From a virus (taxonomy: Duplodnaviria > Caudoviricetes), in the IMG/VR virus record IMGVR_UViG_3300025679_000005: a DNA stretch of 64,000 nt. The stretch is one strand, 5' to 3'. Positions 23,631 to 63,761 of the stretch are shown in pieces (the stretch's first letter is position 1; each line of letters starts with the position of its first letter). The notes below the pieces were generated by a model, which did no database searches, had not been told where the DNA came from, and saw only the letters and a program-made list of their open reading frames with translations. The position numbers and the translations under genes are program-made.

Positions 23631-23938
23631 AGACCATTTTCCTAGTCACAGCCGTTTGCTCTAATCGTGAGGGAGGCAACCGATGTTGGGGGTGGTACCC
23701 GTCCAAAGACGACGCCTGGACGGACCTAGAGGCCAACACAGACATGTTCTGTGAGAGCGGCACCTTCGACTATCTGGTCATTGAGGAGTGCGGCCCCGGG
23801 ATCATGGCCTTGGTCGATGCACCATCGGAACCCATCTGGGTCAGAGCTTTCTTCGAAGCGGATACCCACAAGTACAGCCTGCTCGCTGTGAAACGGCCAG
23901 AGTTTGCTGAAGGCGTCGTCTGCTGGGGAATGGGCTAG
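23606..23938 (+). CDS. Hypothetical protein; probable 5' half of a gene split by tnpB element 1
   Basis: Stop TAG is the first 3 nt of the inferred element; joins in frame to 25198. Confidence 0.55.
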   Translation: MQTMLKDLKTIFLVTAVCSNREGGNRCWGWYPSKDDAWTDLEANTDMFCESGTFDYLVIEECGPGIMALVDAPSEPIWVRAFFEADTHKYSLLAVKRPEFAEGVVCWGMG

Positions 23939-25197
23939 CGCATAGCTTTTGCTCAAAAAGCCATTTTGTGCTAAACTTAGCTCGATGATCCGCTCTTACC
24001 GATACCCACTGCACCCCACGAAGAATCAGGAGGCGACTTTGACCTCCTGGCTCCTAGCATGCGGTAGTCTGTACAACGGAGCATTAGAAGAGAAGAAATC
24101 CTCGTGGGCAAAGCTCAAAAAAGGCGTTTCCTGTTACGAGCAGTATAGGTCTCTGACCATCATTCGTTCTCAGGACCCTGAATTCGGAGCGATACCCGCA
24201 ACTATCCTTCGATCTGCTCTCAAACGACTTGAACGATCCTTCGACGGATTCTTCCGTCGCGTGAAATCTGGAGAGGCCCCTGGTTATCCACGGTTTCGTA
24301 GTCAAAAGCGATATGACTCATTCTCATTGATGGGCTGTTTCTATTCTGGAGTCATTGTCGATAAAGCCAGAGGCTCCTCAGCTCAGGTCAAAATCCCCAA
24401 GCTTGGCCTCGTGAAGTTCAACCAGTACCGACCTCACAAGGGTGAGGTCAAAGACATCCTAGTCAAGCGAGAGGCTGATCGATGGTTCGTGATCTTCCAG
24501 TGCGACCTCGGAGCGGCACCCAAGGTCGCGGCCGACCTCACGAAGTCTGTCGGCATTGATCTAGGGCTTACCCACTTCGCAACCCTCGATTCCGGTGAGA
24601 CGATCGAGAACCCTAGGTTCTTCAAGGCCGGACAAGACCTATTGGCTAGGCGGCAGCGTGCTCTAGGGCGTAAGCGCCGGGGCAGTGCCTCTATGAGACG
24701 TGCTAAGATCCTAGTCCAGCGGGCTCACGCTCACATCAAGAACCAGCGCCTAGACCACGCTAGGAAGCTCGCCAAGAGTCTTTTCGATCGCTTCGACGTG
24801 GTCTGCTATGAGGATCTTTCGATCCAGGACATGATCTCCGGACCTCCCAGAGACGGAAAGCCTAAGCTCAATCTAGCCAAATCAATCTCAGACGCTTCCT
24901 GGTCAATTACAATCCACTGCCTAAAATGCAAAGCGGAAGAAGCTGGCAAGATCGCAGTGGGGGTTGATCCAAGAGGAACCACACAGAGGTGTAGTGGGTG
25001 CGGGGAGATCGTCCGTAAGGACCTTTCTATGCGCATTCATGATTGCCCCGCATGTGGTCTCATCATGGATCGTGACCAGAATGCAGGATGTAACATCAAA
25101 GCGCTCGGTTTGAGCGCGGTCTTGGGGATGAAGTCCCAGCCGAAGTTCATAGTCAGGGCAGCTTAAAATGAGCCGTCAAGACTTTTTGGGTAAAACC
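23936..25197 (+). mobile_element. Non-autonomous tnpB-only IS element, copy 1
   Basis: Left and right ends shared with copy 2; preceded by ATGGGC; right end ATGAGCCGTCAAGACTTTTTGGGTAAAACC. Confidence 0.75.
23985..25166 (+). CDS. tnpB: RNA-guided endonuclease TnpB
   Basis: RSYRYPLHPT N-terminus; RuvC GIDLG, YEDL, DRDQNA; zinc finger CSGCG and CPACG. Confidence 0.93.
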   Translation: MIRSYRYPLHPTKNQEATLTSWLLACGSLYNGALEEKKSSWAKLKKGVSCYEQYRSLTIIRSQDPEFGAIPATILRSALKRLERSFDGFFRRVKSGEAPGYPRFRSQKRYDSFSLMGCFYSGVIVDKARGSSAQVKIPKLGLVKFNQYRPHKGEVKDILVKREADRWFVIFQCDLGAAPKVAADLTKSVGIDLGLTHFATLDSGETIENPRFFKAGQDLLARRQRALGRKRRGSASMRRAKILVQRAHAHIKNQRLDHARKLAKSLFDRFDVVCYEDLSIQDMISGPPRDGKPKLNLAKSISDASWSITIHCLKCKAEEAGKIAVGVDPRGTTQRCSGCGEIVRKDLSMRIHDCPACGLIMDRDQNAGCNIKALGLSAVLGMKSQPKFIVRAA

Positions 25198-25680
25198 CGG
25201 CAACGTCCTCTTGATGCCAAGATGATCCCCGAAAAACAGCACGAATGGGCCTATTGCGAACACTGCCAAGTCTGGATGGTTCGCTGTGGGGCCTGTCGTA
25301 ACAACACCTGCAATGGCGGGTACGGGACAACTGCCTCGGGATCGCCCTGTCCCAGTTGCCCATCAGCCTATGAGCTGATGAAGATCTTCTACGAGACGAA
25401 GCACACCCTGGACTTCAAGGAACTGGATGGCTTATCCAAGGAGGAGTACAGGGCGAAGCTTCGATCCATCACTCCGATCCCGACGCCGATTAAGCTCGCT
25501 GAGTTGGATGCCAAGATCGAAGCCTACGAGGCGGGTCACGGCCTGAATTCGGACACGATGCTGTCCAGGCTGACCAATGGGGATATCGAAGAGACCCCAG
25601 AAATCTGCGACTGGCTGATGGATCTCGACCTGCGAAAACGCCTGCTCGGTGTAACTACGGGGCATGCCCAATGCCCCTGA
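25168..25680 (+). CDS. Cys-rich hypothetical protein; probable 3' half of the split gene, with an ATG supplied by the element end
   Basis: CEHC, CGAC, CPSC; first 10 codons lie inside the conserved element right end. Confidence 0.6.
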   Translation: MSRQDFLGKTRQRPLDAKMIPEKQHEWAYCEHCQVWMVRCGACRNNTCNGGYGTTASGSPCPSCPSAYELMKIFYETKHTLDFKELDGLSKEEYRAKLRSITPIPTPIKLAELDAKIEAYEAGHGLNSDTMLSRLTNGDIEETPEICDWLMDLDLRKRLLGVTTGHAQCP

Positions 25681-62191: not shown

Positions 62192-62436
62192 TCAACTAGG
62201 GCAATCACAACGGACTTCGCCGGAAACCGCCCCAGCTTCTGAGCGTGCTTTGGACCTTACACCAAAGGCTCTGAGACTCACTCGCCCTATTTCCAAGCCA
62301 ATGGCGATTGTTGCCATCACGAAGAAGGCCGTGGCTTTGATCCAGTTGGGCGGATTGCTCAGATCCATGCTAACATCGGCGCACAATGTCGAGCAAATCC
62401 AGGTGCCGTATTCGGTCTGGGCGTGGAAGAAGGTGC
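62192..62436 (-). pseudogene. 3' part of an 89-aa gene interrupted by tnpB element 2 (5' part at 63726-63750)
   Basis: Joining gives MTLTEFHG-RTFFHAQTEYGTW...CDCPS stop, 270 nt in frame. Confidence 0.6.
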
Positions 62437-63725
62437 GGTTTTGCCCAAAAAGTCTTGGCGGCTCATAAAGACACCCATTCTTCTCTGGACTTCGGCTGAG
62501 AACCTACCTGCCGTAAGGCCTGTAGGTTCTCGTTGACCGCGCTCAAACCGAGCGCTTTAATGTTACACCCCGCATTCTGGTCACGATCCATGACGAGACC
62601 ACACTCGGGGCAATTGTGGATGCGGAACCGTAGTCCCTTGGGGACGACGGTTCCGCACGCATGACACCTCTGTGTAGTTCCTCGTGGATCAACTCCTACC
62701 GCTAACTTACCAGCTTCTTCCGCTTTGCATTTTAGGCAGTGGATTGTAATTGACCAGGACGCATCCGAGATTGATTTCGCTAGATTGATCTTCGGCTTCC
62801 CATCTCTGGAAGGACCTCTGGAAGGACCTGAGATCATCTCCTGAATCGAGAGGTCCTCGTAACAGACGATGTCATTCGTTTCAAAGAGGGACTTAGCCAG
62901 CTTCCTAGCGTGATCTAGCCTCTGATTCTTGATGTGAGCGTGAGCCCGCTGGACTAGGGTCTTGGCCCGTCTCCTAGAGGAGCTGCCACGGCGCTTGCGT
63001 TGCATAGCGCGTTGGCGTTGGGCCAAAAGGTCTTGCCCCGCCTTGAAATAACGAGGATTCTCGATCGTTGTTCCGTCATCAAGGGTACCGAAGTGGGTGA
63101 GTCCTAGGTCAATGCCGACGGACTTCGTGGGGTCGATCACGACCTCAGGGGCTACTCCCAAATCGCACTGGAAGATCACAAACCATTTACCGGCTTCTCT
63201 TCTAACTGAGACATCAAGGATCTCTCCTTTATGGGGCCGATATTGGTTGAATTTGACTAGGCCTAGCTTGGGGATCTTGACTCTGGCAGAGGAAACCCTC
63301 TTGATCTTAGGCTCAATTTTCGTAGTAGTCTGAAGAGCAAACGAGTCGTAGCGCTTGTAGCTACGGAACCGCGGGAAGCCAGGGGCTTCGCCCGTCTTCA
63401 CGCGGCGGAAGAATGCCTTGAAGGCATCGTCTAATCGCTTGAGCGGAGATCGAAGGATCGTGGCTGGGATCGCTTCGAAGTCAGGGTCTTGAGATCGAAT
63501 GATGGTCAGGGACTTCTGTTGATCATAGAGAGTCAGACTCTTTTTGAACTTTAGGTAGTGACTTTTCCGCTCTTCCAGGGCGCCGTTGTAGAGGCTATTG
63601 CACATGAAGAGCCAGTTGGCCATTCTGGCCTCCTGGTCCTTCGTGGGATACAGCGGATAACGAAAAGAGCGAATCATTCGGTTATTCTAACACAAAAAAT
63701 GGTTTCATGGGCAAAGCCGAGGCTG
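62437..63725 (-). mobile_element. Non-autonomous tnpB-only IS element, copy 2
   Basis: Same end sequences as copy 1; preceded by ATGGGC on the minus strand. Confidence 0.75.
62463..63677 (-). CDS. tnpB: RNA-guided endonuclease TnpB, close paralog of 23985-25166
   Basis: GIDLG, YEDL, DRDQNA and zinc finger intact. Confidence 0.93.
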   Translation of the reverse strand: MIRSFRYPLYPTKDQEARMANWLFMCNSLYNGALEERKSHYLKFKKSLTLYDQQKSLTIIRSQDPDFEAIPATILRSPLKRLDDAFKAFFRRVKTGEAPGFPRFRSYKRYDSFALQTTTKIEPKIKRVSSARVKIPKLGLVKFNQYRPHKGEILDVSVRREAGKWFVIFQCDLGVAPEVVIDPTKSVGIDLGLTHFGTLDDGTTIENPRYFKAGQDLLAQRQRAMQRKRRGSSSRRRAKTLVQRAHAHIKNQRLDHARKLAKSLFETNDIVCYEDLSIQEMISGPSRGPSRDGKPKINLAKSISDASWSITIHCLKCKAEEAGKLAVGVDPRGTTQRCHACGTVVPKGLRFRIHNCPECGLVMDRDQNAGCNIKALGLSAVNENLQALRQVGSQPKSREEWVSL

Positions 63726-63761
63726 GCCCATGAAATTCGGTGAGGGTCATGCCTAAACCTC

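What the first reader, a model, noticed from the sequence alone, without database searches (positions are those of the whole stretch)
23930..63731. Twin tnpB elements reveal their own ends, target motif and guides
Seen: both copies directly follow ATGGGC (23930-23935 plus; 63726-63731 minus), share a left-end motif (GCTTT..GC...CCATTTT.GTG.TA.A.T), and share a 30-nt right end ATGAGCCG(T/C)CAAGACTTTTTGGG(T/C)AAAACC before diverging abruptly. Removing 23936-25197 rejoins an 813-nt ORF. Removing 62437-63725 rejoins a 270-nt ORF that has its own GGTGTA promoter. Known: the TnpB TAM equals the sequence just left of the element, and the guide is the sequence just right of it. Prediction: TAM near ATGGG(C); guides starting CGGCAACGTCCTCTTGATGC and GCACCTTCTTCCACGCCCAG. 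No transposase is in the window, so spread would be in trans or by homing.
Basis: partly seen in the sequence, partly recalled or inferred. Interest (0 to 1): 0.72.

Follow-up and report, generated by a model that had tools for sequence, protein, structure and literature searches.

The report
Transposase-less TnpB guide-RNA elements in phage

Summary
Window 23936-25197 (+) and 62437-63725 (-) are two intact IS200/IS605-type tnpB elements, about 75% identical in DNA. They share a left end and a 30-nt right end, and both follow ATGGGC.

They are not really twins. The same ~465-kb huge peat phage carries at least five more copies outside the window, plus an 86-nt right-end remnant at 59700-59785. 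Other first readers of this scan noted the sister copies in other windows.

- **Right boundary and guides: supported.** Seven right ends all stop at (A)AAACC. A related phage contig (L170) is a true empty site for sister copy C.
- **Guide-RNA scaffold: supported.** Synonymous-site conservation and compensatory hairpin changes point to a scaffold over the last ~280 nt.
- **Selection: supported.** dN/dS is 0.07-0.15.
- **The "813-nt rejoined ORF": wrong.** Its first 110 codons are a complete gene. Nearly all of its 122 homologues, and all 23 aligned, end at that same glycine.
- **Left junction.** ATGGGC in copy A is therefore native flank, and TAG is most likely the native stop. The junction probably lies 3 nt further right, and the TAM register is unresolved (GGGC+NNN versus TGGGC).
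- **Transposase.** No Y1 transposase was found in the window or in about 120 kb of the phage.

This is a new member of a known kind. The side result is that the right end supplies an in-frame start codon, shown for copy C.

The parts
23606..23938 (+). Complete small phage gene just left of copy A. It ends ...TGG GGA ATG GGC TAG.
   Evidence: There are 122 homologues of about 100-110 aa. Nearly all end at the residue aligned to G110, with C-terminal consensus [WF][GS][MIL]G-stop.
23930..23935 (+). ATGGGC left-flank motif of copy A (native host sequence).
   Evidence: It encodes the conserved terminal Met-Gly of the upstream gene. It is identical to the motif left of copy B.
23936..23984 (+). 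Left end of copy A. The junction is at 23936 (reader) or, more likely, 23939, after the native TAG stop. It holds AGCTTTTGCTCA and a -10-like TGnTAAACT.
   Evidence: The A-B alignment gives p 0.002-0.004 against shuffles, and A-L172 gives p 0.002. The motif is unique to A and B in the window.
23985..25166 (+). tnpB copy A (393 aa, intact).
   Evidence: Pfam finds three TnpB domains. NCBIfam scores IS200_TnpB above IS607_TnpB. The RuvC D/E/D and CxxC..CxxC motifs are kept.
24915..25197 (+). Predicted omegaRNA scaffold of copy A, overlapping the tnpB 3' end. The 5' limit is approximate.
   Evidence: Codon-identical sites are 58% here against 22% upstream (p 1.5e-7). dS falls threefold. An invariant hairpin and a covarying hairpin are present.
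25168..25197 (+). 30-nt right end of copy A. It begins with an ATG.
   Evidence: It matches copy B at 28 of 30 positions. Seven right ends stop at (A)AAACC.
25198..25217 (+). Predicted guide of copy A (CGGCAACGTCCTCTTGATGC).
   Evidence: It is the first flank bases after the right end. The rule was verified on sister copy C with an empty site. There is no other match with 2 or fewer mismatches over the first 16 nt of the guide.
25168..25680 (+). ORF that starts at the right-end ATG and runs in frame into the downstream gene. The native start is probably ATG 25222.
   Evidence: The C-terminal 160 aa have no homologue other than themselves.
63726..63731 (-). ATGGGC left-flank motif of copy B.
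   Evidence: It lies inside host gene B, 20-25 nt after its ATG.
63678..63725 (-). Left end of copy B. The junction is at 63725 or 63722.
   Evidence: GGCTTTGCCCA is also present in relatives L090, L172 and L173.
63703..63735 (-). Perfect 10-bp inverted repeat: TTTCATGGGC in the flank and GCCCATGAAA inside the left end.
   Evidence: The DNA fold gives -12.3 kcal/mol, z -3.7. In copy A only TGGGC/GCTCA remains.
62463..63677 (-). tnpB copy B (404 aa, intact).
   Evidence: The best natural PDB match is ISDra2 TnpB (E 4e-47).
62437..62741 (-). Predicted omegaRNA scaffold and right end of copy B. Its variable hairpin is lengthened by 21 nt.
62417..62436 (-). Predicted guide of copy B (GCACCTTCTTCCACGCCCAG).
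63748..63767 (-). GGTGTA motif and ATG start of interrupted host gene B. The rest of the gene lies at 62192-62436.
   Evidence: GGTGTA occurs 57 times against about 33 for control hexamers. In 56% of cases a start codon of an ORF of 50 aa or more follows (searched at 5-25 nt; nearly all lie at 8-14 nt), against 20% for controls. Only junctions 22, 25 or 28 nt after the ATG give the 88-90-aa ORF.
59700..59785 (+). Right-end (omegaRNA 3') remnant without tnpB. It ends ATGAGCAAAACC, and its ATG (59774) is in frame with the gene that follows.
   Evidence: Both changes in hairpin 1 keep pairing as G-U, and hairpin 2 covaries.

Best explanation
Copies A and B are two old, separately maintained, transposase-less IS200/IS605-type TnpB elements. 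They belong to a family of at least seven copies plus one remnant in one ~465-kb huge peat phage.

Each copy carries three things: a short left end with a promoter-like sequence, an intact RuvC/zinc-ribbon TnpB, and an omegaRNA scaffold. The scaffold overlaps the last ~280 nt of tnpB and ends ...GGGYAAAACC. The 16-20 nt of host DNA that follow are the guide.

The TnpB-omegaRNA complex would cut any copy of the locus that lacks the element, that is, the left-flank motif followed directly by the right flank. In a phage this means a co-infecting relative, or a copy from which the element has been excised. Recombination then copies the element in (homing or maintenance). New sites would need a Y1 TnpA supplied in trans.

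Status of each step:
- Shown here: family membership, intactness, purifying selection, RNA-level constraint, the right boundary, and the guide rule (on sister copy C).
- Inferred: expression, cleavage and homing.
For: **Identity.** Pfam and NCBIfam give the domain architecture. ISDra2 TnpB structures are the best natural PDB match (E 4e-47), with aligned D/E/D and CxxC motifs.

**Family.** Copies C-G lie on the same genome. The window is 100% identical to a 464-kb ENA contig across both elements, and the neighbouring proteins are found there letter for letter.

**Selection.** dN/dS is 0.07-0.15 and dS about 1.5 over codons 1-300.

**omegaRNA.**
- Codon-identical sites are 58% in the last 100 codons against 22% before (Fisher p 1.5e-7).
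- dS drops to about 0.5 there.
- There is an invariant GCGCUC/GAGCGC hairpin and a second hairpin with compensatory changes in every copy.

**Right boundary.** Seven ends stop at (A)AAACC. Relatives end GGCAAAGCC or GGCAAAGTC. Empty site L170 joins ...GGGCATG to AAAGTAACTGAGG..., which matches copy C's flank from the first base after AAAACC.

**Left flank.**
- The upstream gene of A is complete, and ATG GGC TAG encodes its family's terminal residues.
- TGGG(C/G)TA precedes the same left-end motif in L172.
- Gene B has the phage's GGTGTA-N11-ATG start signal.

**Transposase.** Y1 TnpA sits next to 22 of 160 distant relatives. None is found in the window or in about 120 kb of phage loci (best E 0.36).

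**Concept.** The homing concept, including homing between co-infecting phages, is in the literature (PMC13565253; 10.1101/2023.03.14.532601).
Against: - There are no RNA data. The single public run that holds this DNA is a DNA run kept as contigs.
- No empty site was found for A or B themselves.
- The left ends of copies C-G do not align with A and B. Copy C has only 9-14 nt of left end, which a TnpA could hardly use.
- A clear TnpA-type hairpin is not evident at the left end of A (fold z -0.5).
- The 'GGGC + 3 nt' register rests on three sites and was recognised after the fact.
Confidence: 0.72

Rival explanations
1. The elements are 23936-25197 and 62437-63725. They inserted directly 3' of ATGGGC, the TAM is (A)TGGGC abutting the target, and copy A split an 813-nt gene.
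For: The hexamer is identical at both sites. In copy B it pairs perfectly with left-end-internal GCCCAT. This resembles the IS608 rule that the cleavage site pairs with a guide inside the left end and is cut at its 3' edge (PMC3201880, PMC5934647). A TGGG core is conserved in L172.
Against: With this junction, the upstream gene of A would lose its stop and fuse to the next gene. Yet nearly all 122 homologues, and all 23 that were aligned, end at that glycine. The C-half has no homologues at all. The frame argument cannot tell 23936 from 23939 or 23930. Copy C's verified junction lies 3 nt after GGGC.
Confidence: 0.2
2. The copies were not placed by a Y1 transposase. They entered by microhomology-mediated or illegitimate recombination, possibly at breaks. 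If so, the left-flank similarity reflects junction microhomology, and no fixed target or TAM can be read from it.
For: Copy C has a left end cut down to 9-14 nt. AAAGT at its left junction is repeated as GAAGT at the right flank, while the flanks are otherwise intact relative to the empty site. In A the 9 nt ATGGGCTAG look both native and like copy B's junction. No TnpA was found in about 185 kb examined.
Against: A, B and L172 share both the flank core and the adjacent left-end motif at constant spacing. This fits a sequence-specific insertion. Two cases of short microhomology are weak statistics.
Confidence: 0.15
3. The nucleases are kept by the phage for its own benefit rather than for their own spread. 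For example, they may cut competing phages that lack the insertion (marker exclusion), or have another RNA-guided role.
For: There are four intact copies at dS about 1.5 under strong purifying selection without any transposase. The genome is rich in other RNA-guided systems: a type I-C array in the window, and CasPhi and other Cas12-like loci noted by earlier readers. Copy C's guide matches the related phage L170 at 17 of 20 positions, next to GGGCATG.
Against: This cannot be told apart from homing by sequence alone, and purifying selection is also expected for a homing nuclease. Three copies (D, F, G) are decaying.
Confidence: 0.15
4. The copies are inert relics of old insertions with no present activity.
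For: There is no TnpA. Copies D, F and G are truncated, inverted or frameshifted, and a bare right-end remnant exists.
Against: A, B, C and E have intact catalytic motifs, with dN/dS 0.07-0.15 at near-saturated dS. The RNA hairpins are kept by compensatory changes.
Confidence: 0.07

Closest known systems
ISDra2 TnpB with its omegaRNA/reRNA (Deinococcus radiodurans; PDB 8EXA, 8BF8, 8H1J; PMC8612924)
   Same: The domain order, RuvC D/E/D and zinc ribbon are the same. The guide-RNA scaffold overlaps the 3' end of tnpB and the right end. The guide is the DNA just past the right end, and the TAM is the target motif left of the element.
   Different: Identity is low; the match is E 4e-47 over the full length. 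There is no tnpA partner here. The left-flank motif is G-rich (GGGC...) rather than TTGAT. The right end ends AAAACC and carries an ATG. The host is a huge phage.
Non-autonomous tnpB-only IS200/IS605 elements (IS1341-type), with sense-overlapping 3' ncRNAs (PMC4615843)
   Same: tnpB stands alone with short ends. A conserved RNA overlaps its 3' end. There are many diverged copies per genome.
   Different: Here the copies sit in a virus. At least one copy (C) has almost no left end, and the right end supplies a start codon for the next gene.
TnpB/IscB homing after TnpA excision, and 'non-restorative homing' into co-infecting phages or plasmids (10.1101/2023.03.14.532601; review PMC13565253)
   Same: This is the proposed mode of maintenance and spread: an RNA-guided cut of the element-free allele, followed by recombinational copying.
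   Different: It was not tested here. No transposase is present to create vacant sites, so the only natural targets would be related phages.
IStrons (group I intron fused to IS605/IS607 TnpB; PMC10690162)
   Same: Both are TnpB elements that lessen the cost of inserting into genes.
   Different: No intron is present: there is no Rfam family hit, and only about 49 nt lie before tnpB. The possible cost-lowering device here is a right-end start codon, not splicing.
Free-standing homing endonuclease genes of T-even phages (Seg, Mob; reviewed in PMC13565253)
   Same: They are selfish nuclease genes wedged between or into phage genes, and they spread during co-infection.
   Different: Recognition there is by protein, not RNA, and there is no transposon ancestry.

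Membership tests
TnpB (OMEGA RNA-guided endonuclease) | HTH + OrfB_IS605 (RuvC) + zinc-ribbon TNB domain architecture above curated cut-offs | tested here: met
   Pfam scores are 69.8/63.1/30.5 bits for A and 77.4/64.3/39.8 bits for B. NCBIfam guided_TnpB scores 233 and 261 bits against a cut-off of 100.
TnpB (OMEGA RNA-guided endonuclease) | Intact RuvC D-E-D triad and CxxC...CxxC | tested here: met
   GIDLG, YEDL, DRDQNA and two CxxC pairs are conserved in A, B, C and E. They align to the ISDra2-like chains.
TnpB (OMEGA RNA-guided endonuclease) | Structured omegaRNA overlapping the tnpB 3' end and right end | tested here: met
   There is excess synonymous conservation (p 1.5e-7) and a dS drop. 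Hairpins covary in 6-7 copies. No Rfam model matches. Expression was not tested.
TnpB (OMEGA RNA-guided endonuclease) | Guide equals the DNA immediately 3' of the right end, and matches the empty site next to a TAM | tested here: met
   This was shown for sister copy C with empty site L170. For A and B it is inferred from the shared AAAACC terminus.
TnpB (OMEGA RNA-guided endonuclease) | RNA-guided, TAM-dependent DNA cleavage | not testable with these tools
   This needs a TAM depletion or in vitro cleavage assay.
IS200/IS605 insertion sequence | Y1 (HUH) TnpA transposase in the element or genome | tested here: not met
   tblastn with 22 Y1 TnpAs from relatives gives a best E of 0.36 in the window and in phage loci L001-L009. 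TnpA (PF01797) sits next to 22 of 160 distant relatives. The copies here are therefore non-autonomous at best.
IS200/IS605 insertion sequence | Insertion 3' of a short conserved target, without target duplication | tested here: inconclusive
   A and B share ATGGGC(Y)AG, and L172 has TGGGGTA. Copy C has GGGCATG, and AAAGT/GAAGT at its two junctions.
IS200/IS605 insertion sequence | Subterminal hairpins at both ends for TnpA binding | tested here: inconclusive
   B has a 10-bp inverted repeat spanning the flank and the left end (z -3.7). A has none (z -0.5). The right-end folds are not better than shuffles.
IS607 family | IS607-type TnpB and serine recombinase TnpA | tested here: not met
   IS607_TnpB scores 129 bits against IS200_TnpB 235-248 bits. 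Serine recombinases were not searched for specifically.
IStron | Group I intron at the 5' side of the element | tested here: not met
   There is no Rfam hit in the window at gathering scores. Only 46-49 nt lie between the flank and the tnpB ATG.
TldR / nuclease-dead domesticated TnpB | Loss of RuvC catalytic residues and fixed association with a host gene | tested here: not met
   The catalytic residues are intact.

The most novel reading that the evidence does not exclude
This TnpB lineage has adapted to life in a densely coded phage genome. Its right end carries a start codon and a short leader peptide (MS..KT), so the gene downstream of an insertion is translated again. The copies persist and spread without any transposase, by RNA-guided homing between co-infecting huge phages.

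The restart is shown for copy C. The related phage starts the gene MKVTEDEF, and the occupied phage reads MSRQDSGKT-EVTEDDF. The ATG is also in frame in copy A and in the remnant at 59774, but not in copy B.
Probability: 0.3. Interest if true: 0.6.

Novelty: new member of a known kind. Interest (0 to 1): 0.4.

Why it matters
The finding gives a well-bounded natural set of TnpB/omegaRNA pairs with G-rich candidate TAMs. There are four intact proteins, about 75% identical, seven right ends and one verified empty site.

It also shows that a huge phage keeps several such nucleases under purifying selection with no transposase. That makes phage-to-phage homing, or competition by TnpB, directly testable.

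For annotation, it corrects a tempting error. An ORF that 'rejoins' after removing an insertion is not proof of an interrupted gene, and it fixes the junction only modulo 3.

Tried and rejected
- **Whole genome:** not held for this window.
- **Phage collection:** no near match.
- **Exact scans for the 30-nt right end** in viral contigs and genome contigs: 0 hits.
- **Neighbour proteins in viral contigs:** no relatives.
- **Empty sites for A or B:** none found. Every contig that holds the neighbouring genes (ENA 464 kb, JGI 88 kb, Logan) also holds both insertions. The C-half of 'gene A' has no homologue. The contig of the closest homologue of the upstream gene has no DNA held and a different neighbour.
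- **Sequencing runs:** one DNA holder, kept as contigs; no RNA holder is listed.
- **Laying that run's contigs:** they break inside the tnpB repeats and no contig joins across the element. Contigs cannot show rare alleles.
- **Relatives from genome contigs and metagenome contigs:** They were useful for TnpA but not for TAM transfer.
- **ATGGGC-like or 'NATG' motifs left of copies C-G:** rejected as evidence. With one mismatch allowed, such hexamers are expected in about a quarter of 60-nt stretches (my own estimate). Only the A-B upstream alignment, and A-L172, beat shuffles.
- **Copy C's supposed long left end:** it proved to be native intergenic DNA once the empty site was seen.
- **ATGGGC frequency:** not enriched in the window (39 occurrences against 34.6 expected).
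- **CRISPR spacers:** the listing of spacer matches was cut off. The matches seen were the array's own copies in the duplicate loci, plus the partial self-match reported under Noticed in passing. No match to a tnpB element was seen.

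
Full report
**What is there.** Window 23936-25197 (+) and 62437-63725 (-) each hold one long ORF of 393 and 404 aa. Both have the full TnpB architecture, HTH_OrfB_IS605, OrfB_IS605 and Cas12f1-like_TNB. They score higher on NCBIfam's IS200/IS605 TnpB model than on the IS607 model. ISDra2 TnpB structures are their best natural PDB match (E 4e-47). The RuvC D/E/D motifs (GIDLG, YEDL, DRDQNA) and both CxxC pairs are intact.

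The two elements are about 75% identical in DNA.

**Context.** No whole genome is held. The closest protein hits lie on contigs of 464,302 and 465,854 bp. The ENA contig is 100% identical to the window across both elements, and the neighbouring proteins are found there letter for letter.

The window also holds a CRISPR array of about 70 repeats, followed by type I-C cas genes, and an intein-bearing gene. Earlier readers of this scan describe the genome as a huge peat phage.

The 'twins' belong to a larger family on the same genome:
- copies C and E are intact;
- copy D is 3'-truncated;
- copy F carries a small inversion;
- copy G is frameshifted;
- an 86-nt right-end remnant lies inside the window at 59700-59785.

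Other first readers had noted these sister copies, and the AAAACC terminus, in other windows.

**Right end, guide RNA and guides.** Seven right ends (A, B, C, E, F, G and the remnant) stay alignable up to (A)AAACC and diverge at the next base. Relatives at 50-58% protein identity from unrelated metagenomes end GGCAAAGCC or GGCAAAGTC.

The last ~280 nt show RNA-level constraint:
- Among codons whose amino acid is identical in A, B, C and E, 58% are nucleotide-identical in the last 100 codons, against 22% before (Fisher p 1.5e-7).
- dS falls from about 1.5 to about 0.5.
- The region holds an invariant hairpin, GCGCUC-GGUUU-GAGCGC.
- A second hairpin changes sequence in every copy but keeps pairing: GGGG/UCCC, GGCUU/AAGCC, GGUC/GACC, GGCC/GGCC, GGCA/UGCC, and a 10-bp extension in B.

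Decisively, a related phage contig (L170, 73-80% identical in the flanks) is an empty site for copy C. It reads ...GGGCATGAAAGTAACTGAGG. The occupied locus reads ...AGGCATGAAAGT-[element]-...GGGCAAAACC-GAAGTAACTGAAG. The flank resumes at the first base after AAAACC.

Over the first 16 nt of each guide there is no other match with 2 or fewer mismatches in the DNA examined.

**Left junction and TAM.** The first 110 codons of the '813-nt rejoined ORF' are a complete gene. A profile-free HMMER search found 122 homologues, nearly all about 100-110 aa, whose alignments end both at query residue 110 and at their own last residue. The family ends [WF][GS][MIL]G-stop, and the window reads W-G-M-G-stop.

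Three things follow:
- The rejoined ORF is a chimera of two genes.
- The TAG at 23936-23938 is most simply the gene's own stop, so the element starts at 23939.

The frame argument could never have settled this. Removing 1262, 1259 or 1268 nt all keep the frame, and in B junctions 22, 25 or 28 nt after the ATG all give an 88-90-aa ORF.

With the shifted junction the flanks read GGGC-TAG| in A and GGGC-CAG| in B. Copy C's junction, fixed independently by the empty site, reads GGGC-ATG| in L170 and AGGC-ATG| in the occupied phage. This 'GGGC plus three bases' pattern was recognised after the fact, so I give it about even odds.

Support for a real target motif comes from L172, a 57%-identical relative in an unrelated contig. 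There TGGGGTA precedes the same AGCTTTGCC left-end motif at the same spacing (alignment p 0.002).

In copy B, the flank TTTCATGGGC is a perfect 10-bp inverted repeat of the left-end-internal GCCCATGAAA (z -3.7). This recalls the IS608 rule that the cleavage site pairs with a short guide inside the left end (PMC3201880, PMC5934647). In A, only 5 bp of this pairing remain.

The left ends of copies C-G do not align with A and B beyond chance. My attempts to read ATGGGC-like or NATG motifs there are not statistically defensible.

**Gene B.** The short upstream piece of the 270-nt ORF starts 11 nt after a GGTGTA. That hexamer occurs 57 times in the window against about 33 for control hexamers. The downstream part stays open for 81 codons and contains a hydrophobic helix. 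Copy B therefore probably does interrupt a small membrane-protein gene. Copy A sits between a stop codon and the next gene.

**Transposase.** I took Y1 TnpA sequences from the loci of distant relatives. They stand next to tnpB in 22 of 160 loci and are PF01797 by Pfam. I searched the window and about 120 kb of further phage DNA with them, and nothing scored better than E 0.36.

**How it most likely works.** The four intact copies have diverged to near-saturated synonymous sites (dS about 1.5), yet show dN/dS 0.07-0.15. The proteins have therefore been kept working for a long time.

The best-supported mechanism is the published one. TnpB with its omegaRNA cuts the element-free allele, and recombination restores or spreads the element. 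In a phage, the natural element-free allele is a co-infecting relative. The literature already names this 'non-restorative homing' (PMC13565253; 10.1101/2023.03.14.532601).

Expression, cleavage and homing are inferred, not shown. A phage-beneficial role, cutting competitors, cannot be separated from homing by sequence.

**Side result.** The right ends of A, B, C and the remnant contain an ATG, in ATGAGC...AAAACC. In copy C the insertion lies 3 nt after the native start codon. The right-end ATG restores the frame: the related phage starts the protein MKVTEDEF, and the occupied phage reads MSRQDSGKT-EVTEDDF. The ATG is also in frame in A (25168) and in the remnant (59774), but not in B. Three of four in frame is not significant on its own.

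**Verdict.** It is right in spirit but unresolved in register for the TAM, and wrong for the 813-nt gene. These are new members of a known kind, solo IS200/IS605 TnpB-omegaRNA elements, in an unusual host and copy number. TnpB genes in huge phages have been reported before (PMC12607003).

Noticed in passing
window 59700-59785 (+): A bare right-end (omegaRNA 3') module without tnpB. Both changes in hairpin 1 keep pairing as G-U, hairpin 2 covaries, and it ends ATGAGCAAAACC. Its ATG (59774) is in frame with the following gene, which runs to 60088.
   Followed up: partly
L001:9976-11227 and L170 (outside the window): Copy C has a true empty site in a related phage. Its left end is only 9-14 nt. 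AAAGT at the left junction recurs as GAAGT at the right flank. The right-end ATG replaces the native start codon of the downstream gene, in frame.
   Followed up: yes
window 33958-39531 (+) and 39711-46776: A CRISPR array of about 70 36-nt repeats with two repeat variants. It is followed by type I-C cas genes (Cas8c/Csd1 at 40349-42154, E 8e-46) and a helicase at 43210-45588.
   Followed up: partly
window 34285-34320 versus 56439-56461: One spacer of that array has a 23-nt exact match inside the phage's own 1226-aa methyltransferase-helicase gene (54308-57988).
   Followed up: no
window 51727-53148 (-): A third, distant TnpB-like gene of 473 aa: Cas12f1-like_TNB E 2e-13, guided_TnpB 94 bits (just under its cut-off). 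Its ends and RNA were not examined.
   Followed up: no
window 2585-5875 (-): A 1096-aa exonuclease-like gene carrying intein signatures (Hint_2, LAGLIDADG_3, Intein_splicing).
   Followed up: no
whole window, e.g. 63762-63778 both strands: GGTGTA is a gene-start signal of this phage: 57 sites, and in 56% a start codon of a sizeable ORF follows within 5-25 nt, mostly at 8-14 nt. At 63757-63777 two of them form a 9-bp palindrome (TCTACACCA-CTT-TGGTGTAGA) between divergent genes.
   Followed up: partly
L003:9600-10830 and 11970-13200; L002:10015-11119: Sister copies are decaying in different ways. F has a short inverted segment (reversed BLAST piece), G has an early frameshift, and D has lost its 3' end and omegaRNA.
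   Followed up: partly
L091:2590-2690: A 49%-identical relative on a 163-kb metagenomic contig has a tandem duplication of about 45 nt in its right end.
   Followed up: no
window 24705-24764 and the equivalent in B: A second island of synonymous-site conservation lies at codons 241-260 of tnpB (12 of 18 identical codons). This is well upstream of the main omegaRNA region and is unexplained.
   Followed up: no
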